Shown here piece after piece: positions 6,284-14,716 of a stretch of 64,000 nucleotides of DNA. The notes below the pieces were generated by a model, which worked only from the letters and a program-made list of their open reading frames with translations, was not told the origin of the DNA and made no database searches. Made by a program: the position numbers and the translations under genes. This DNA comes from a virus. The stretch is from positions 32,001 to 96,000 of IMG/VR virus record IMGVR_UViG_3300031758_000004; one strand, written 5' to 3'. The stretch's first letter is position 1, and each line of letters starts with the position of its first letter.

Positions 6284-7906
6284 ATGAGCATGATAAAAGT
6301 CACAAAAAGAAATGGTAAGAAAGAAACCGTTAATTTCAATAAGATTGTTGATCGTATAACACAACAAACTTATGGATTAGATCAAAAGTGGATAGCACCG
6401 TTTGAGATCGCACAAAAAGTTATTGAAGGTATTACACCAGATATTAAAACTTCTGTGTTAGATCAATTGGCAATGGAAACTGCGGCTTCTCTTACAACAA
6501 AACACCCAGATTACTCAGTTTTAGCAGCAAGAATCGCTATTACTTCTTTACATAAAGAAACTAAAAAGAGCTTTTCAGAAACAGTTAAAGATTTATATAA
6601 CTATGTAGATCCAATGACAGAGAAACATTCTCCAATTGTTTCTTTGGATTTTTACAACATTGTTAAAAAACACGCTGATGATTTAGATTCAGCTATTGTA
6701 CACTCAAGAGATCATAACTTTGATTACTTTGGTTACAAAACTTTAGAGAAATCTTACTTATTAAAAATTAATGGTAAAGTTGCTGAAAGACCTCAGTATA
6801 TGTATATGAGAACAGCACTTCAAATTTGGGGTGAAAACTTAGAAAAAGTAATTAAAACTTATAACGAATTATCAGAAGGTTATTATACTCACGCAACACC
6901 AACATTATTCAACTCTGGAACAGGTAGACCACAATTATCTTCTTGTTTCTTATTAGATACTGAATCAGATTCTATTGATGGTATTTTTAACACATTAAAA
7001 GAAGCTGCTCAAATCTCTAAAAACGCGGGTGGTATTGGTATCTCTTTTAACAAAGTAAGAGCTAAAGGAACTTATATTGCTGGTACAAACGGTACTTCAA
7101 ATGGTATTATTCCTTTCTTAAAAATCTATAATGAGACAGCGAGAGCGGTAGACCAAGGTGGTGGTAAACGTAAAGGATCAATTGCTATTTATATGGAACC
7201 ATGGCACGCTGATATTATGGACTTCTTAGATTTAAGAAAGAACCAAGGTAAAGATGAAATTAGAGCTCGTGACCTTTTCTTAGCAATGTGGATGAACGAC
7301 TTGTTTATGGAAAGAGTTGAGTTAGATGCTGATTGGTCATTAATGTGTCCTCACGAATGTACTGGATTGAATGAAACTTATGGTGAAGAATTTAACAAAC
7401 TTTATACTTCTTATGAAGCGGCTGGAAAAGCTAAAAGAGTTGTTAAAGCAAGAGAAGTTTGGAATAAAATATTAGAATCTCAAATTGAAACTGGTACACC
7501 ATACTTATTATACAAAGATTCAATCAATGAGAAATCAAATCAATCAAATATTGGAATGATACACTCATCTAATCTATGTTTAGATGGAGATACTTTAGTT
7601 AAGTGTAGAGTTGAAGGTGTAGAGAAAGAATTTGATATGGTCACAATAGATCTTATGTTTAAGAATGGTAAGAAAATAGAAGTTCTTTCTAGAGACTTAG
7701 AAACAGGAATTGATGAGTGGTGTTTGGTTGAAAACTCTGGTATAACCAATCATAATGCGGAAACTATCAAAGTAACAGATGAAAGTGGGAATTACATAAT
7801 CTGTACAGAGGATCATCAAGTTTGGACTCAAAATAGAGGATATGTTAGAGCTGGTGATTTAGAAGAAAATGATATTTTATTATTAAATGAAAAAGAACTT
7901 GTTTAA
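6284..7906 (+). CDS. nrdA: Ribonucleotide reductase class Ia alpha subunit, N-part plus 109-aa split-intein N-fragment
   Basis: ATP cone (VTKRNGKKE), THATPTLFNSGT, SSCFL, DQGGGKRKGS, ETGTPY, then SSNL|CLDGDT intein start at 7577 and block B CTEDHQV. Confidence 0.95.
   Translation: MSMIKVTKRNGKKETVNFNKIVDRITQQTYGLDQKWIAPFEIAQKVIEGITPDIKTSVLDQLAMETAASLTTKHPDYSVLAARIAITSLHKETKKSFSETVKDLYNYVDPMTEKHSPIVSLDFYNIVKKHADDLDSAIVHSRDHNFDYFGYKTLEKSYLLKINGKVAERPQYMYMRTALQIWGENLEKVIKTYNELSEGYYTHATPTLFNSGTGRPQLSSCFLLDTESDSIDGIFNTLKEAAQISKNAGGIGISFNKVRAKGTYIAGTNGTSNGIIPFLKIYNETARAVDQGGGKRKGSIAIYMEPWHADIMDFLDLRKNQGKDEIRARDLFLAMWMNDLFMERVELDADWSLMCPHECTGLNETYGEEFNKLYTSYEAAGKAKRVVKAREVWNKILESQIETGTPYLLYKDSINEKSNQSNIGMIHSSNLCLDGDTLVKCRVEGVEKEFDMVTIDLMFKNGKKIEVLSRDLETGIDEWCLVENSGITNHNAETIKVTDESGNYIICTEDHQVWTQNRGYVRAGDLEENDILLLNEKELV
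7577..7903 (+). other. Split intein N-fragment (109 aa) of NrdA
   Basis: CLDGDTLV...ICTEDHQVWTQNRGYVRAGDL, conventional IntN. Confidence 0.9.
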
Positions 7907-8786
7907 TTATGAGGATTTTATAACAGATAACATAGATAATACATCCTTTATCTATGTTTATCTGGATCCTAGAAAATCAGGAGACTATAAATATGGTGAA
8001 TATGAATTTAATCATGAACCTTTTTATGTTGGTGCTTCTAGTGGTAAAACTATACATGATCGAAAAGTTCGACATTTACAATACGCGAAAAACGATAAGG
8101 ATATAACAAATAATAATTACAAAAAGAATATAATAAAGAGTATATTATCAGATAAATTAGAACCAATTATATTGAAATATATTGATGGTATGAGTATATC
8201 AGATGCCTTTTTTAAGGAAAAAGATATGATACTAATCATTGGTAATAGATATGATAAGTCAGGACCTCTAGTTAATATATCAAAAGGAGGAGATGGTGGT
8301 GATAACTTTACTAATAATCCAAGAAAAGAGGAGATAAGAGAAAAGCATAGAAGAAATGCTTTAGGATCGAATAATAATATGTATGGTCTTCCTTTAGAAG
8401 AATATCCATCACATAAAGCAAAGTTGAGAGGAGAACATTGGAATATGGGTAGAACCGCGTCAATATCAACAAGAGAAAAGCTATCCAAACAAAGAAGTGG
8501 ATCTGGTAATAGTAGAGCTAAAAAAACTTTACTTTTTGATAAAGACTTCAATATAATTAGAGAATTTGATTATTGTTTTGATGTATCTAATTATATTAAC
8601 TCATCAAATAGGTCGGTTTCCAAGACCGCAAGTACAAATTCAAAAGAGGAAATGTATCCATATCATACAACAAAAGGTTATTATATAATCTATAAGGATG
8701 ATTGGGAAAATAAATTTAAGAATAAAGAAAATGAAATTAGAGAATATCTAAAGACATTTAAGAAAAATAAAAATCAATTTTCATAA
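7887..8786 (+). mobile_element. Free-standing GIY-YIG-type homing endonuclease with NUMOD3-like DNA-binding segments
   Basis: FIYVYLDPRK...EPFYVGAS...R..RH, E(KDMI), LVNISKGGDGG, then REKLSKQRSGSGNSRAK. Confidence 0.8.
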
Positions 8787-8803
8787 AAAATAAAAAAAAT
8801 ATT

Positions 8804-8899
8804 ATGATCAAAATCGAAAAAGTAAAAAATAGACCAGTTTATGACATTACTGTGAATAAAAATCACAACTTTTATGCTAATAATATATTAGTACATAAC
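8804..8899 (+). other. Split intein C-fragment (32 aa) of NrdA
   Basis: Blocks F and G ending His-Asn. The +1 residue is the Cys of the NLCxE active-site motif. Confidence 0.9.
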
Positions 8900-10165
8900 T
8901 GTGCTGAAATAGTTGAAGCGACAGGCGTTACTAAAACGCAAAAAGCTATTTTAGAAAATAAAGAGTTATTAGAGAAATTAGGGTTAGGTGAATTCTGGGG
9001 TCAAGAAGAAGTAAATGAAACAGCAGTTTGTAACTTAGCTTCTTTAGCACTTCCTAAGTTTATCAATAAGAATAAAACTTATAATTTTAATAAACTTTAT
9101 GATATTGCTTATGATGCGATTGTTAACTTAAATAATGTTATTGATGTTAACTTTTATCCATCACCATCAGCTAAATTTTCTAACTTATGTCATAGACCAG
9201 TTGGTTTAGGTGTTCAAGGATTAGCAGATGTTTTCTTTCAATTAGGATTACCATATGAATCTGAAGAGGCTAAACAATTAAATAAAGATATTTTTGAAAC
9301 TATCTATTACGCTTCAATTAAAGCTTCTTGTGATTTAGCTAAAGTACAAGGCACTTACGCAACTTATGAAGGTTCACCTATTTCACAAGGTAAATTCCAA
9401 TTTGATTTATGGGGAACTAAACCTAGTAAAAGATGGGATTGGGATAAATTAAGAGAAGAAGTTAAGAAGTATGGTGTTAGAAACTCTTTAACAACTTGTA
9501 TCATGCCAACAGCATCAACAGCTTCTATCTTAGGTAATGAAGCATCTTGTGAAGCTCAAACTTCAAATATGTACACAAGAAGTGTTCTTTCAGGAACTTT
9601 CATTATGGTAAATAAATATTTAGTTAAAGAATTAGTTAAGTTAGGATTATGGAATGAAAATTTAAGAAAGAAAATTATTGCTGAGAATGGTTCGGTTCAA
9701 AATGTACCTGAAGTACCAACTAACTTGAAAGAAATCTTTAAAACTGTTTATGAGATTAAACAAAGAGATGTTATCGAGATGGCTGCTGATAGAGGAGCGT
9801 TTATTGACCAAACTCAATCAATGAATATTTTTATGGATTCTCCAAACTTTGCTAAGTTGACAGCGATGCACTTCTATGGATGGGGTAGAAGAAACTTAAT
9901 GACCAATGAAAATGGTGAAGTTATTATCCCACAAGGAGAAAATATTCAAGTTATTTACGATTCAGAAGGTAAAGCAAGATGTTATAAAGATAAGAGATAC
10001 ACATTAAAAACTGGTATTTATTATTTAAGAAATAAATCAGCGGCAGACGCAGTTAAATTCACTGTACAACAAGATACGGCTAAGAAAACTGTTGAAGAAC
10101 AAATGGCTGAAATCTCGTGTAGCTTAGATTCAGATCCTGGTGAATGCATGGCATGCGGCTCGTGA
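8804..10165 (+). CDS. nrdA: Ribonucleotide reductase alpha subunit C-part: 32-aa IntC plus catalytic extein
   Basis: MIKIEKVKNRPVYDITVNKNHNFYANNILVHN|CAEI. Then CNLASL, RPVGLGVQG, MPTASTA, DQTQSMN, LKTGIYYLR and C-terminal CSL...CMACGS. Confidence 0.95.
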   Translation: MIKIEKVKNRPVYDITVNKNHNFYANNILVHNCAEIVEATGVTKTQKAILENKELLEKLGLGEFWGQEEVNETAVCNLASLALPKFINKNKTYNFNKLYDIAYDAIVNLNNVIDVNFYPSPSAKFSNLCHRPVGLGVQGLADVFFQLGLPYESEEAKQLNKDIFETIYYASIKASCDLAKVQGTYATYEGSPISQGKFQFDLWGTKPSKRWDWDKLREEVKKYGVRNSLTTCIMPTASTASILGNEASCEAQTSNMYTRSVLSGTFIMVNKYLVKELVKLGLWNENLRKKIIAENGSVQNVPEVPTNLKEIFKTVYEIKQRDVIEMAADRGAFIDQTQSMNIFMDSPNFAKLTAMHFYGWGRRNLMTNENGEVIIPQGENIQVIYDSEGKARCYKDKRYTLKTGIYYLRNKSAADAVKFTVQQDTAKKTVEEQMAEISCSLDSDPGECMACGS

Positions 10166-10598: not shown

Positions 10599-10673
10599 AC
10601 CGTAGTTAGAGAAAAGGTTACTTCGCAATTTTTAGGATAATTTCAAAACACACCTTATCTCAATTTTCTCGGT
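10599..10673 (+). ncRNA. Putative Y-RNA-like stem-loop RNA, module 1 (Ro60-associated)
   Basis: Ends pair (GAGAAAAGGT 10609-18 with ACCTTATCTC 10652-61; ACC/GGT at the ends). The loop starts with TACTTCG. Lies upstream of the TROVE gene. Confidence 0.55.
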
Positions 10674-10682
10674 CATTATTAA

Positions 10683-10914
10683 AACAGACATAGCAATAGC
10701 TCTGAGATACTTCGAACTATAAATAACAATTCAGATCGAAAAGTGTCAAAAGCGACAGCTACGACTACCAAGAAGGTATATTCTCTGGAATATTCTGAGG
10801 TGAAAAAGTCCGTTAGTCTTCACGTTACGGAGACGAGTGGAATGGTCACTACAACCATTGATAGAGTTTCGGGAGAATTCTCTATGACGCTTAGGCTAAA
10901 CTTTCTTGTCTGTT
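10683..10914 (+). ncRNA. Putative large structured RNA, module 2 (Y-RNA-like closing stem with ~180-nt multi-hairpin insert)
   Basis: AACAGACA/TGTCTGTT and TAGC-T-CTGAG/CTTAG-GCTA close the element. The loop starts with TACTTCG, there are at least five internal hairpins, and the region is visibly GC-richer than its flanks. Confidence 0.65.
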
Positions 10915-10923
10915 ACTTATTAT

Positions 10924-10967
10924 AATGACCAGGATATACAAATGTATAGTTCTGGTCATTTTTTTTT
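10924..10967 (+). terminator. Long intrinsic terminator between the ncRNAs and the TROVE gene
   Basis: AATGACCAGGA-TATACA-AA-TGTATA-G-TTCTGGTCATT followed by a T-run. Confidence 0.85.
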
Positions 10968-11014
10968 GTAGAAATTAAAGAAATTAAAAATATTAAAATA
11001 AAATTAAAGAAATT

Positions 11015-11485
11015 ATGGCTAGATTTAACGCAACATTACCTAAACAAAAGACCTTAACTAATAACTTAGCAGGAGGTCAAGCTTATTCACAATCTGATGA
11101 ATTAGCATTAGTATCATTTTTACTAACATCATTTGTTAGTGATCAATTTTATAGATCATCTGATCAATCTTTGAATGAGTTGAAAAAACTTTTAATCAAA
11201 GTTGATCCTGTTTTTGCCGCTAAAGCAGCTATTTATGCCAGAGATAAGTTTGGTATGAGATCTGTTGCACATGCTTTAGCAGGTGAGTTAGCAAAGTATT
11301 TATCTGGAAAAGATTTTGCTAAGAATTTCTATGATAAAATAGTTGTTAGACCTGATGATATGATGGAGATATTAGCTTATTATAATACAAATTGTGGGAC
11401 TAAAATTCCTAACTCTATTAAAAAGGGATTCGCAAAATCATTTGATAGATTTGATGGTTATCAGTTGTCTAAATGGAAAAAATGA
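11015..11485 (+). CDS. rsr: Ro60/TROVE-domain RNA-binding protein, N-terminal fragment
   Basis: NLAGGQAY, DQFY, AIYARDKFGMRS, RPDDMMEILAY, KKGFAKSFDRFDGYQLSK: the N-terminal TROVE domain. Confidence 0.88.
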   Translation: MARFNATLPKQKTLTNNLAGGQAYSQSDELALVSFLLTSFVSDQFYRSSDQSLNELKKLLIKVDPVFAAKAAIYARDKFGMRSVAHALAGELAKYLSGKDFAKNFYDKIVVRPDDMMEILAYYNTNCGTKIPNSIKKGFAKSFDRFDGYQLSKWKK

Positions 11486-11520
11486 TATTTGAAAAATAAT
11501 ATATACTTAAAAAGTATATT

Positions 11521-12195
11521 ATGAGTTTTTTTATTTCAAAAGAAGATTTGGAGTATTTATATTTTGTGGAAAATTTATCTTACTCTAAAATTGAAAAAAA
11601 ATTAAACTTAAATCGAGGTGTTATATATCACTGGTTTAAAAAATATGAAATTAAACCAAGAAACTACTCAGATGCTGGTAAAGGTAGAAAATTTACAGAT
11701 GAACATAAGAAAAAAATTTCATTTTCAAATTCCAAGCCACATACCGAAGAGAGAAAAAAAAATATATCAAATTCACACTTAGGTAAAAATTTAACAGATG
11801 AGCATAAAGATAAAATAAGAAGTAAATTTATAGGACTTAGACCTGGATTTAAACACCCTATGTGGAAAGGAGGTAGATCCACATTTAGAAATAGATTACA
11901 ACAATCATCTCTATATAAGGAATGGAGAAAATCTATATATGATCGTGACTTATATAAATGTCAAATTTGTAATAGTGGTGGTAAATTAAATTCACATCAT
12001 ATTATAAAGTTCTCAAAGATTGTAGAGGATTACAATCTTTTAAAATACGAAGATTACATCATGTGTAATTTTCTTTGGGATATAGATAATGGAATTACAT
12101 TATGTGAAAAATGTCACCATAGTATAAAAGGTATAGAGGAAAAATTTGAAGAAAAATTTAAAAGTATAATTTATGAAAAAAAGAAAAATGTATAA
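11521..12195 (+). mobile_element. Free-standing HNH homing endonuclease with NUMOD3 repeats
   Basis: HTH N-terminus, three (F/H/L)T(D/E)E(H/R)K..I repeats, HPMWKGG, RDLYKCQIC...LNSHHI...NGITLCEKCH. Confidence 0.88.
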
Positions 12196-13147
12196 ATTAG
12201 TTGACGTTGTTAACTTAGTACACCCAGTGCCAACAGAGAAAAACTCTGAAGCACTTAACTTATTAATCAATGATAAGTTAAAAAACACTGATACTTGGGA
12301 AGCTAAGTTATCAGCAGCTGGTCAATCAGCTGAGAACTCAGAAGATTTGGCACAATTAAAGGCTGATGCTTGGACAGAGTTAATCTCTACAAGAAAATTG
12401 GGTTACTTTGCTCTTTTAAGAAACTTGAGAAACATTGTCTCTCAAGCTCCACAATCTGTTACTGCGGCTTGTGAAATGTTGGTTGATGAAAAATTAATCA
12501 AAAAGAGTAGAGTTTTACCATTCAGATTCTCTACAGCTTATGAAGAAATCTCTAAGCTTCCTTCAAACAAGGAAACAAGACAAGTGTTAGTTGCTATCAA
12601 CAACGCTCTTGAAGTTTCAGTACAAAATGTACCAAAGTTTGAAGGTGAAACATTACTTGTAATGGACGTATCTGGATCTATGAGTGGTAGACCATCAGAA
12701 ATTGCGAGTTTATTCGGAGCAATTATTGCGAAAGCAAATAACTGTGACGTTATGACTTTCTCTACAAGTGCTAATTATAAGACTTACAATCCATTGGATT
12801 CTGTAATGACAATAAGAAGCTCTTTTAGATACTCTGGTGGTGGTACTAACTTTAAGTCTATCTTCCAAAATGCTAATAAGGCTTATGATAACATCGTTAT
12901 TTTAAGTGATATGCAAGGTTGGATTGGTTATACATCACCAAGTGCTGAGTTTAACCAATATAAGAAAAGATTTGGGGCTAATCCTTCAGTATTCTCTTGG
13001 GATCTTGCTGGGTATGGTACTTTACAACTACCTGAAAATGGTGTTTACTGTTTGGCTGGTTTTTCTGATAAAGTTTTTGATGTAATTGAATTACTAAAAA
13101 CTGACAGAAATGCGTTAGTAAACGAAATTAAATCCATTGAGATTTAA
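12188..13147 (+). CDS. rsr: Ro60/TROVE protein, C-terminal fragment including vWA domain
   Basis: KLVDVVNLVHP, TWEAKLS, LGYFALLRNLRNI, SRVLPFRF, vWA MIDAS DVSGSM, GGGTNF, ILSDMQ, WDLAGYG. The start is taken at ATG 12188, which overlaps the HNH stop; the ORF track starts at 12173. Confidence 0.9.
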   Translation: MYKLVDVVNLVHPVPTEKNSEALNLLINDKLKNTDTWEAKLSAAGQSAENSEDLAQLKADAWTELISTRKLGYFALLRNLRNIVSQAPQSVTAACEMLVDEKLIKKSRVLPFRFSTAYEEISKLPSNKETRQVLVAINNALEVSVQNVPKFEGETLLVMDVSGSMSGRPSEIASLFGAIIAKANNCDVMTFSTSANYKTYNPLDSVMTIRSSFRYSGGGTNFKSIFQNANKAYDNIVILSDMQGWIGYTSPSAEFNQYKKRFGANPSVFSWDLAGYGTLQLPENGVYCLAGFSDKVFDVIELLKTDRNALVNEIKSIEI

Positions 13148-13151
13148 TAAC

Positions 13152-13182
13152 AAAAAACCCACTCATTTGAGTGGGTTTTTTT
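13152..13182. terminator. Bidirectional intrinsic terminator
   Basis: AAAAAACCCACTC-ATTT-GAGTGGGTTTTTT between convergent genes. Confidence 0.85.
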
Positions 13183-13996: not shown

Positions 13997-14716
13997 ATGT
14001 TAGTTCATGATGATTGCTTTAACTATATATCTAATTTAAAAGATAAATCAATTAGTTTGATATTAACAGATCCACCTTATCAAATATCCAAGTCATCAAA
14101 TTTTAAAAACTATTCAGATAAAGCTAATTCTGATATAATAACAAAGTATGGTAGTCACTCTATTGACTTTGGTGAATGGGATAAAGAAGAAATTAACTGG
14201 GATCTCTTATTTAAAGAATATTTTAGAATATTAAAAGATGGTGGTACTCTAATATTCTTTTTTGATATATGGAAGTCAACTATTATAAAAGAAATAGCCG
14301 ATAAGTATAAATTCAAACAAGCAAGAGTTTGTCAATGGCAAAAAACCAATCCAGTTCCTATAAATTCTAAAGTTAATTATCTTTCAAATGCTAACGAATA
14401 TTTTTTCACTTTTGTAAAAGGTAAGAAACCTACTTTTAACTCCGAGTATGATAATGGTGTTTATAGATATCCAATTTGTCATGGAAAAGAAAGATTGGAT
14501 CACCCAACTCAAAAGCCACTTAGTTTAATACAAGATTTAGTTAAAAAACACTCTAATGAAGGTGATTTGGTGTTGGATACTTTTGCTGGATCTGGTACAA
14601 CCGGTGAAGCCTGTCAAATTTTAAATAGAAAATATATTTTAATTGAAAAGGATGAAAATTATTTTTTATTGATAAAAAATAGGTTAGGAGAAAACAAAAC
14701 AGAAATAAATACATAA
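13997..14716 (+). CDS. DNA N4/N6 methyltransferase (beta class), orphan
   Basis: LILTDPPY (motif IV) precedes HPTQKP and VLDTFAGSGTTG (motif I). Confidence 0.9.
   Translation: MLVHDDCFNYISNLKDKSISLILTDPPYQISKSSNFKNYSDKANSDIITKYGSHSIDFGEWDKEEINWDLLFKEYFRILKDGGTLIFFFDIWKSTIIKEIADKYKFKQARVCQWQKTNPVPINSKVNYLSNANEYFFTFVKGKKPTFNSEYDNGVYRYPICHGKERLDHPTQKPLSLIQDLVKKHSNEGDLVLDTFAGSGTTGEACQILNRKYILIEKDENYFLLIKNRLGENKTEINT

What the first reader, a model, noticed from the sequence alone, without database searches (positions are those of the whole stretch)
11015..13147. Ro60/TROVE split into two polypeptides with neither intein nor intron
The N-part ends FDGYQLSKWKK* and the C-part starts MYKLVDVVNLVHP. 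As I recall, homologues read roughly FDxYQLAKY(x6-8)KLVDVVNLVHP, so only a few loop residues are lost. Both halves are otherwise intact, with a new stop and a new coupled start. No Cys/Ser...His-Asn intein ends are present and only 35 nt of non-coding sequence remain. Precedent: nrdA of phage Aeh1 is split by mobE and reassembles. A two-piece Ro ring might open to load RNA differently.
Basis: partly seen in the sequence, partly recalled or inferred. Interest (0 to 1): 0.8.

Follow-up and report, generated by a model that had tools for sequence, protein, structure and literature searches.

The report
Endonuclease-split two-piece phage Ro60 gene
A large uncultured phage carries its Ro60 RNA-binding ring protein as two separate genes, cut apart by a selfish homing-endonuclease gene that has spread the same cut into many related phages; both pieces stay under selection, so the two-piece protein very probably works. 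This is a known kind of event in a new protein.

Summary
The TROVE/Ro60 gene lies in two ORFs, 11015-11485 (156 aa) and 12173-13147 (324 aa). Between them is a 224-aa HNH/NUMOD3 homing-endonuclease gene (11521-12195), with no intron or intein. The cut falls in a 9-residue loop between two HEAT helices, and no conserved residue is lost.

New findings here:
- The split is not unique. I found at least 27 N-half, 12 C-half and about 23 endonuclease protein clusters in metagenomes.
- A close syntenic relative (L062, 85-90% nt identity) has the intact gene. The window differs from it by a 0.7-kb cassette plus about 200 nt of donor-type upstream sequence.
- The same mosaic appears in two other lineages, which is the signature of homing with co-conversion.
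- The endonuclease-linked tract is one clade, found only in split alleles, with dN/dS 0.02-0.22 at saturated dS.
- C-halves show no relaxed selection.
- Two alleles have lost the endonuclease but keep both halves and the C-half start region.

Most likely this is a functional, non-covalently assembled two-chain Ro60, analogous to Aeh1 NrdA-a/mobE/NrdA-b. Assembly was not shown.

Earlier notes of this scan report endonuclease-split Ro60-like genes on at least seven other genomes. I found no paper describing one.

The parts
10601..10916 (+). Conserved structured non-coding RNA region upstream of the Ro60 gene, a candidate Y-RNA-like partner. It is context, not part of the split.
   Evidence: The alignment of 14 loci has invariant blocks and variable-length insertions. 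RNAalifold gives 43 pairs, 15 with compensatory changes. An nhmmer profile finds it in 101 loci, including split alleles L061, L063 and L065. There is no Rfam hit.
11015..11485 (+). Ro60/TROVE N-half, 156 aa, stop TGA at 11483-11485. It covers the first HEAT helices up to the KYK-type motif (here SKWKK).
   Evidence: TROVE 29.2 bits. It keeps 20/20 family-invariant residues. 27 clusters of 154-167-aa homologues end at the same site.
11271..11482 (+). Donor-type (co-converted) tract: the 3' third of the N-half (about aa 93-156), imported together with the endonuclease.
   Evidence: Identity to the syntenic intact relative L062 falls from 0.83-0.97 to 0.60-0.87 per 30-nt bin here. At protein level it is 64-65% to L062 against 90-94% to other split alleles, Fisher p=6e-11. 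The tract is one clade of 33 split rows (96*) and is absent from 99 intact alleles.
11486..11520 (+). 5' junction of the cassette: 35 nt non-coding with a conserved TATATAC-type motif about 20 nt before the endonuclease ATG. Promoter function is inferred.
   Evidence: Junction comparison of 7 split alleles. The motif is conserved in alleles with a full endonuclease and lost in the two decayed ones.
11521..12195 (+). Free-standing homing-endonuclease gene, 224 aa: N-terminal helix-turn-helix-like region, NUMOD3 repeats, C-terminal zinc-bound HNH nuclease.
   Evidence: Pfam NUMOD3 scores 21.5 bits against a 20.4 cut-off; HNH_2 and HNH fall below their cut-offs. PHROG 8446 'HNH endonuclease' matches at 1.2e-20. 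It is 31% identical over 89% to the Bacillus phage PBC2 HNH endonuclease. C147, C150, H159, H160, N190, C195, C198 and H199 are invariant in 5 orthologues. dN/dS is 0.14-0.27.
12173..13147 (+). Ro60/TROVE C-half, 324 aa: cassette-derived basic leader MKKRK(MY), remaining HEAT helices, vWA domain with DVSGSMSG metal site, C-terminal helices.
   Evidence: TROVE 45.9 bits; vWA matches below cut-off. It keeps 35/35 invariant residues and is 95% identical to intact L062. dN/dS against L062 is 0.066. The leader is conserved in 17 C-halves.
12110..12172 (+). 3' end of the cassette upstream of the C-half ATG (GAAAAATTTAAAA..TATA..TTT). It is retained in every split allele, including those that lost the endonuclease. 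A role as expression signal for the C-half is inferred.
   Evidence: One search shows the motif in all 7 alleles, including L068 where the endonuclease no longer abuts the C-half. Searches show the L061/L063 deletions stopping upstream of it.
13150..13182 (+). Hairpin plus T-run after the C-half (CCCACTC-ATTT-GAGTGGG-TTTTTTT), the likely terminator of the unit.
   Evidence: Read directly. Terminator-driven weak Rfam leader matches pile up here. The simple scan did not list it.

Best explanation
A free-standing HNH/NUMOD3 homing-endonuclease gene sits inside the phage's only detected Ro60/TROVE gene (the record is about 73% complete), in a surface loop between two HEAT-repeat helices.

The cassette ends the upstream reading frame 1-3 codons after the junction. 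Its 3' end supplies an ATG, a basic MKKRK leader and an A/T-rich upstream element for the downstream part. The phage therefore makes a 156-aa N-half and a 324-aa C-half (inferred).

The two chains assemble without covalent joining into the usual Ro60 ring (inferred). The Y-RNA-binding surface is formed by residues from both chains.

The endonuclease spreads the arrangement by cutting intact alleles in co-infecting relatives. Repair copies the cassette plus about 200 nt or more of upstream donor sequence. That sequence carries a 4-residue-shorter loop that probably destroys the target site (cleavage and immunity inferred).

Because the split costs little, invaded lineages persist. They keep the two-gene state even after the endonuclease decays.
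For: **Shown**
- Anatomy and family of all three ORFs.
- The profile of intact relatives matches Thermus phage Ro60 9l5y/9kop at 1.8e-37 over the full length.
- The AF2 model of intact L062 (pLDDT 83.9) has TM 0.62-0.71 to the solved Ro60 structures (9kop, 9l5y, 1yvp, 1yvr, 2i91, 2nvo, 9ne*/9nf*). The break falls in loop 158-166 between helices 152-157 and 167-174.
- The site is polymorphic: 129 loci are intact and 7 are split at the identical site.
- L062 is syntenic at 85-90% nt identity and lacks only the cassette at this site.
- Three independent mosaics were found, p=6e-11, 1e-14 and 2e-6.
- C-halves are scattered among intact alleles (6 changes for 6 rows), while the linked tract is one clade.

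**Selection**
- The tract has dN/dS 0.02-0.22 with dS 0.8 to over 2.
- C-half dN/dS against the nearest intact allele is 0.056-0.18, inside the intact-intact range.
- Invariant residues are kept at 19-20/20 and 34-35/35 in 34 N-halves and 16 C-halves.
- All 27 N-half, 12 C-half and about 23 endonuclease clusters are full length.
- L061 and L063 lost nearly all of the endonuclease but keep both halves and the C-half start region.
- No second TROVE copy was found in the 191-kb record.

**Composite RNA site**
The phiRo60 RNA-contact residues R137/K141/K142 and R163/R169/R173/R178 map to either side of the break.
Against: - No protein, RNA or expression data exist, so association of the halves is inferred only.
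- In the window itself the invasion is recent. The C-half terminal branch is 0.006, so intactness of this copy alone says little.
- Most C-half divergence among split alleles arose while those alleles were intact. Only the roughly 62-codon tract and the endonuclease report on evolution in the split state.
- A strongly driving selfish element can persist at some cost.
- The record is only about 73% complete, so a second intact copy elsewhere cannot be excluded.
- Promoter and translation signals are motif-level inferences; the generic promoter scan was uninformative.
Confidence: 0.72

Rival explanations
1. The split gene is dead. The endonuclease is purely selfish, destroys Ro60 function on invasion, and persists because homing outruns selection. 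The halves look intact only because each invasion is recent.
For: The window and L066 were invaded very recently (terminal branches 0.006-0.007). C-halves are polyphyletic, so their conservation was mostly acquired while intact. Function has not been shown.
Against: - The tract that travels only with the endonuclease has saturated dS yet dN/dS of 0.02-0.22.
- No frameshift or premature stop appears in 27 N-half and 12 C-half clusters.
- Invariant residues are retained.
- Older split alleles (L063, L064, L065, L068) show no raised dN/dS.
- Endonuclease-less alleles, which can no longer home, still keep both halves and the C-half start region.
- Intact alleles are strongly conserved, so loss of Ro60 should be costly.
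Confidence: 0.12
2. Only one piece works. For example, the C-half (part of the TROVE domain plus vWA) acts alone, or the halves have taken separate roles, and no ring is re-formed.
For: The C-half holds two thirds of the protein, the vWA metal site and the conserved VNLVHP helix. Nothing shows contact between the halves.
Against: The N-half tract is under purifying selection as strong as or stronger than the rest of the N-half. In phiRo60 the RNA-contact residues lie on both sides of the break. In Ro60 structures the N-terminal repeats close the ring against the vWA domain (PMC12135203), so an N-less C-half would be an open arc.
Confidence: 0.1
3. The interruption is removed at the RNA level (a group I or other self-splicing intron carrying the endonuclease ORF), giving a continuous Ro60.
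For: Phage group I introns often carry HNH endonuclease ORFs. The N and C parts are in the same frame in the window. No RNA data are available.
Against: - No intron family matches at E<=10 or at gathering score.
- Only 35 nt lie before the ORF, and the ORF runs past the 3' junction, leaving no room for a ribozyme core.
- The N-half has its own stop and the C-half a conserved ATG plus leader.
- In L061 and L063 only 50-100 nt remain between the halves, which are in different frames.
Confidence: 0.03
4. A split intein rejoins the halves by protein trans-splicing, as in the dnaB and nrdA genes that earlier notes report as fractured in the same window.
For: An intein C-terminal end (...VHN|C) is present in the neighbouring RNR gene. 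Fractured genes with split inteins around endonucleases are known in phages (PMC2677866).
Against: Homology to intact Ro60 runs to within 1-3 residues of the N-half stop and resumes 5-7 residues after the C-half ATG. There is no Cys/Ser/Ala-led IntN, and no HN+Cys/Ser/Thr IntC.
Confidence: 0.01

Closest known systems
Aeromonas phage Aeh1 nrdA-a / mobE / nrdA-b 'gene in pieces' (Crona et al. 2011, PMC3045599; Friedrich et al. 2007, cited there)
   Same: A free-standing HNH homing endonuclease is inserted in a conserved phage gene. It gives two separately translated fragments with no intron or intein, and the endonuclease ORF overlaps the downstream fragment. The break lies between secondary-structure elements, and short cassette-derived sequences sit at both new termini.
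   Different: The host gene is an RNA-binding HEAT/vWA ring, not an enzyme. The tails are much shorter (1-3 and 5-7 residues) and their role is untested. Here the split allele is seen in dozens of lineages, with a direct homing and co-conversion signature and with endonuclease-decayed derivatives. Aeh1 is a single laboratory case with biochemical proof, which is lacking here.
Thermus phage phiLo phiRo60 with Yrl1/Yrl2 (PDB 9KOP, 9L5Y; Hu et al. 2025, PMC12135203)
   Same: A phage-encoded Ro60 with a HEAT ring, vWA domain and metal site, and structured RNAs encoded just upstream. The intact relatives of the window protein match it over their full length (E 1.8e-37; TM 0.64-0.68).
   Different: phiRo60 is one 502-aa chain. 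Here the chain is cut between the positions of its RNA-contact residues K142 and R163-R169. Sequence identity is only about 24-25%.
Cellular Ro60/Rsr (Xenopus 1YVP/2I91, human 9NEN, Deinococcus 2NVO)
   Same: The same fold (TM 0.62-0.71), the TROVE and vWA domains and the MIDAS-type DxSxS motif.
   Different: About 50 residues shorter, 16-19% identity, phage-borne, and in two polypeptides.
Fractured genes with split inteins around a free-standing endonuclease (Dassa et al. 2009, PMC2677866)
   Same: A phage gene broken in two with an endonuclease gene between the parts and expression signals brought in by the cassette. The same window holds such cases (intein end in nrdA).
   Different: No intein halves are present here, so rejoining by trans-splicing is excluded.
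Intronless homing of free-standing endonucleases in T4-like phages (mobE, seg genes; PMC2790892, PMC2988022)
   Same: Presence/absence polymorphism at one site, with unidirectional transfer of the endonuclease gene together with flanking donor markers.
   Different: Those genes usually sit between genes. Here the insertion is inside a coding region, and the co-converted tract is coding sequence that remains under selection.

Membership tests
Ro60/TROVE family (PF05731 + vWA) | TROVE domain recognisable by profile | tested here: met
   N-half 29.2 bits and C-half 45.9 bits against a cut-off of 23. PHROG 850 'RNA-binding protein' matches both halves in consecutive profile ranges, 1-131 and 161-464.
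Ro60/TROVE family (PF05731 + vWA) | C-terminal vWA domain with DxSxS metal site | tested here: met
   DVSGSMSG in the C-half. D323, S325 and S327 are invariant and retained. vWA_Ro60, VWA_2 and VWA_CoxE match below their cut-offs.
Ro60/TROVE family (PF05731 + vWA) | Closed HEAT-repeat ring fold | tested here: inconclusive
   Met for the intact relative L062: AF2 pLDDT 83.9 and TM 0.62-0.71 to Ro60 structures. Ring closure by two separate chains could not be modelled with the tools allowed.
Ro60/TROVE family (PF05731 + vWA) | Single polypeptide | tested here: not met
   Two ORFs with 18 in-frame stops between them. This is the finding itself and concerns gene structure, not homology.
Ro60/TROVE family (PF05731 + vWA) | Cognate Y-type RNA encoded nearby and bound by the protein | tested here: inconclusive
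   A conserved structured RNA lies directly upstream in 101 loci. There is no Rfam Y_RNA/YrlA match, and binding is not testable here.
Free-standing HNH homing endonuclease | HNH (beta-beta-alpha-metal) catalytic motif with zinc-binding cysteines | tested here: met
   CxxC...HH...N...CxxCH is invariant in 5 orthologues. PHROG 8446 matches at 1.2e-20. Pfam HNH and HNH_2 score 17-18 bits, below cut-off.
Free-standing HNH homing endonuclease | DNA-binding modules typical of homing endonucleases (NUMOD3) | tested here: met
   NUMOD3 scores 21.5 bits against a 20.4 cut-off. The repeats are conserved.
Free-standing HNH homing endonuclease | Presence/absence polymorphism at one precise site in otherwise collinear genomes | tested here: met
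   129 loci are intact and 7 are split at the same codon. L062 is collinear and lacks 11474-12180.
Free-standing HNH homing endonuclease | Co-conversion of flanking markers with the endonuclease gene | tested here: met
   Three independent mosaics. The tract is monophyletic while the rest of the gene is polyphyletic.
Free-standing HNH homing endonuclease | Site-specific cleavage of the endonuclease-less allele; immunity of its own allele | not testable with these tools
   Inferred only. The 4-residue-shorter loop and other tract-specific changes are found in all split alleles and in no intact allele.
Genes in pieces of the Aeh1 nrdA/mobE type | Conserved gene cut into two translated ORFs by a free-standing endonuclease, without intron or intein | tested here: met
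Genes in pieces of the Aeh1 nrdA/mobE type | Cassette-derived tails on the new termini | tested here: met
   The N-half gains K, KK, KN or RHG. The C-half gains MKK[RIT]K(M/L)(Y/I/F), conserved in 17 C-halves. Their necessity is untested.
Genes in pieces of the Aeh1 nrdA/mobE type | Fragments assemble into an active protein | not testable with these tools
   The only evidence is indirect, from selection.
Group I intron | Conserved ribozyme core flanking or enclosing the ORF | tested here: not met
   No match at E<=10. There are 35 nt 5' of the ORF and none 3'. Decayed alleles keep only 50-100 nt.
Split intein | IntN after the N-extein and IntC ending HN before a Cys/Ser/Thr | tested here: not met
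   Only 1-3 and 5-7 non-homologous residues sit at the break.

The most novel reading that the evidence does not exclude
The break lies within the Y-RNA-binding surface. Contact residues mapped from phiRo60 fall on both chains, and the cassette replaces a neutral loop (KGGNKEV) by a basic MKKRK tail. The two-piece Ro60 may therefore be an RNA-dependent assembly: the upstream Y-like RNA clamps the N- and C-halves together, and the endonuclease-derived tail acts as an adaptor or RNA-binding arm. This would give a ring that can open and close on its RNA, which one-chain Ro60 cannot do.
Probability: 0.15. Interest if true: 0.7.

Novelty: new member of a known kind. Interest (0 to 1): 0.45.

Why it matters
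Functional genes cut by free-standing endonucleases rest largely on the one biochemically worked-out case I know of, Aeh1 NrdA. This locus is a natural, replicated example in a different kind of protein, an RNA-binding ring. Intact, freshly invaded, long-invaded and endonuclease-decayed alleles are all available for comparison.

It shows that a homing endonuclease can live inside a coding region, carry with it a piece of host coding sequence that stays under selection, and leave a permanently two-gene protein behind.

For Ro60 biology it marks a loop where the ring tolerates a chain break. That is useful for engineering split or RNA-dependent Ro60, and for testing how the ring opens and how Y RNA binds.

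Tried and rejected
- **Pairwise alignment.** The MAFFT alignment of the window and LR745206 misplaced the 0.7-kb gap. I replaced it with blast and codon-level comparison.
- **IMG/VR scans.** Scans with the N-half, the C-half and the endonuclease found only intact relatives or distant endonucleases. The split clade turned up only in the protein database and the metagenome scan.
- The long contigs carrying P0018, P0027 and P0099 (104-591 kb) could therefore not be inspected.
- **dN/dS between split C-halves.** I first took this as evidence of selection in the split state. I withdrew that once the tree showed the C-halves derive from independent invasions. I replaced it with the tract-only analysis and the comparison with intact-intact pairs.
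- **Promoter and terminator scan.** It gave no more than the shuffles and missed the hairpin that is plain by eye.
- **RNase P.** I considered that the upstream conserved RNA might be RNase P RNA, because of a GTGAAAAAGTCCG block. I dropped the idea for lack of any Rfam match.
- **Extra ORFs in L068.** The two ORFs between endonuclease and C-half in L068, and the 264-aa minus-strand ORF after the gene, have no Pfam match.
- **Complex model.** A joint model of the two chains was not attempted.
Full report
**What is in the sequence**

Three consecutive plus-strand ORFs occupy 11015-13147.
- ORF 11015-11485 is 156 aa and ends ...FDGYQLSKWKK with stop TGA.
- ORF 11521-12195 is 224 aa and lies in a different frame.
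- ORF 12173-13147 is 324 aa and begins MKKRKMYKLVDVVNLVHP.

The first and third ORFs hit Pfam TROVE above the curated cut-off, in consecutive parts of the profile. The third also matches vWA families, below their cut-offs. PHROG 850 'RNA-binding protein' matches them at profile positions 1-131 and 161-464.

The middle ORF is an HNH endonuclease.
- NUMOD3 scores above its cut-off.
- PHROG 8446 matches at 1.2e-20.
- It is 31% identical over 89% of its length to the annotated HNH endonuclease of Bacillus phage PBC2.
- The CxxC...HH...N...CxxCH residues are invariant in five orthologues.

The N and C parts are in the same frame, but 18 stops separate them.

**The intact form**

The window is part of a 191-kb virus record estimated at 73% complete. 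Its relatives include 634-735-kb uncultured phage genomes.

All 32 IMG/VR relatives are intact as well.

A profile of 57 intact relatives matches the crystal structure sequence of Thermus phage Ro60 (9l5y/9kop) over its full length at 1.8e-37. It also matches human, Xenopus and Deinococcus Ro60.

An AlphaFold2 model of the closest intact relative (L062, 482 aa) has mean pLDDT 83.9. Foldseek places it with the Ro60 structures at TM 0.62-0.71. In that model the break falls in the loop 158-166, between helices 152-157 (YQLAKY) and 167-174 (VDVVNLVH).

Nothing conserved is lost. The N-half keeps the sequence through the KYK-type motif and adds one or two residues. The C-half replaces the loop by MKKRKMY.

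**Not an intron, not an intein**

- No Rfam family matches between the halves at E<=10, and none in the whole window at gathering score.
- The endonuclease ORF starts 35 nt after the N-half stop and ends inside the C-half, so a ribozyme core has no room.
- Homology to intact Ro60 runs to within 1-3 residues of the N-half end and resumes 5-7 residues after the C-half ATG. That excludes split-intein pieces.
- In two related alleles only 50-100 nt remain between the halves, which lie in different frames.

**The split is a widespread allele**

A search of 5.8 billion proteins with the N-half returned 27 clusters of 154-167 residues, 67-98% identical to it. All end at the same point, with termini KWKK, KWKN, KWK, KWRHG or KYR(N/H)G.

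With the C-half as query, 12 of the best 120 clusters are 320-325-aa C-halves. The rest are mostly intact genes of 481-484 aa. All 12 but one begin MKK[RI]KM; the exception (P0113) was called from the second Met.

The endonuclease has about 23 full-length clusters at 50-82% identity.

A metagenome scan gave DNA for six further split loci.
- L064, L065 and L066 have the same three-gene layout.
- L068 has two extra ORFs between endonuclease and C-half.
- L061 and L063 have lost almost the whole endonuclease gene, but both halves remain intact.

**Homing signature**

L062 is a 221-kb metagenome contig. It is collinear with the window at 85-90% nucleotide identity over 12 kb. At this site it differs only by lacking 11474-12180.

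Against L062, the window protein shows this pattern:
- residues 1-92: 93-97% identical;
- residues 93-156: 64-65% identical;
- directly after the junction: 93-98% identical.

In residues 93-156 the window is 90-94% identical to other split alleles, and 100% to P0001.

The same mosaic is seen for L066 against L114, and for L063 against L006 with a longer tract. Fisher p values are 6e-11, 1e-14 and 2e-6.

The trees agree.
- On a tree of the C-half, the six split alleles need six changes, and each sits next to an intact allele.
- On a tree of residues 93-154, all 33 split rows form one clade with 96% support.

The tract carries a loop four residues shorter (YYxxN[CV]GxKIPNS) that none of 99 intact alleles has.

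This is what homing with co-conversion produces: one origin of cassette plus tract, then repeated invasion of intact alleles. I infer, but did not show, two further points. The tract holds the target site in an uncleavable form. And its boundaries reflect the nearest well-conserved blocks (FGMRS..HALA upstream, KLVDVVNLVHP downstream).

**Is the two-piece protein functional?**

Because C-halves come from independent invasions, their mutual dN/dS says little about the split state. I do not use it. Four other lines bear on the question.

1. The tract travels only with the endonuclease. Among seven split alleles it has dS of 0.8 to over 2 and dN/dS of 0.02-0.22. That means long evolution under purifying selection as part of a 156-aa protein.
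2. C-half dN/dS between each split allele and its nearest intact relative is 0.056-0.18. This lies inside the 5-95% range of intact-intact pairs at the same dN.
3. 34 N-halves keep 19-20 of 20 family-invariant residues, and 16 C-halves keep 34-35 of 35. No cluster is truncated.
4. L061 and L063 can no longer home, yet they keep both ORFs, the C-half ATG and about 50 nt upstream of it. The deletions stop just before the conserved GAAAAATTTAAAA..TATA element. L068 also retains that element, although its endonuclease no longer abuts the C-half.

The endonuclease itself is under purifying selection (0.14-0.27). No second TROVE gene was found in the record.

**Mechanistic detail**

Mapping the profile alignment onto the mutagenesis of phiRo60 places the Y-RNA contact residues on both sides of the break. 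R137, K141 and K142 correspond to the N-half. R163, R169, R173 and R178 correspond to the replaced loop and the first helix of the C-half.

The RNA-binding surface would therefore be built from both chains, and the cassette-derived leader is basic. That RNA helps hold the halves together is a hypothesis only.

A conserved structured RNA lies directly upstream (10601-10916). It is retained in split alleles, including the endonuclease-less ones.

**Comparison and novelty**

The closest system is Aeh1 nrdA-a/mobE/nrdA-b. It shares the free-standing HNH endonuclease, the overlap with the downstream fragment, the cassette-derived tails and assembly without splicing.

This case differs from Aeh1 in four ways:
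- the protein is different;
- the tails are very short;
- there is population evidence of homing, co-conversion and decay;
- there is no biochemistry.

Full-text searches found no paper on a split Ro60/TROVE gene. Earlier notes of this scan report endonuclease-split Ro60-like genes on at least seven other genomes. Within the scan this is therefore a recurrent theme, which I did not test on that other DNA.

**Verdict**

- It is a new member of a known kind.
- Confidence that the interruption is a homing-endonuclease insertion spread by homing is about 0.95.
- Confidence that the two chains form a working Ro60 is about 0.7.

Noticed in passing
window 10601-10916 (+), hairpin 10929-10968: A conserved structured non-coding RNA lies directly upstream of the Ro60 gene. 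It has invariant blocks (for example AGAGTTTCGGGAGAATTCT..CGCTTAGGCTAAA), variable insertions and 15 covarying pairs, including a long-range helix ACAGACA/TGTCTGT. There is no Rfam match. It makes the 60-aa 'ORF' 10743-10925 spurious.
   Followed up: partly
window 7557-8900 and 8804-10165: Relative to the collinear relative L062, the window has a 1.3-kb insertion in the ribonucleotide reductase large-subunit gene. The downstream RNR ORF begins with an intein C-terminal end (...NNILVHN|CAEIVE; Pfam Intein_splicing 23 bits, below cut-off). L062 lacks the insertion.
   Followed up: partly
L068:6254-7078: In one split allele, two extra ORFs (210 and 62 aa, no Pfam match) lie between the endonuclease and the C-half. 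The endonuclease there ends right after the HNH motif, and the C-half keeps its own upstream element and an MKVKK leader.
   Followed up: partly
L061:1172-1336 and L063:1043-1207: The two endonuclease-less alleles share an identical block of about 165 nt (endonuclease remnant plus the first 85 nt or so of the C-half), although their N-halves differ at 14% of bases and the later C-half at about 12-19%. This suggests a recent exchange of just this block, or strong constraint on it.
   Followed up: no
L064:1147-1290: The endonuclease of this allele has its N-terminal helix-turn-helix-like module duplicated (273 aa against 224-228). Several database clusters of 268-277 aa share the longer form.
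   Followed up: no
window 13997-14716 (+): An N6/N4 DNA methyltransferase (PF01555, 4e-36) lies downstream, after a 264-aa minus-strand ORF with no family match.
   Followed up: no
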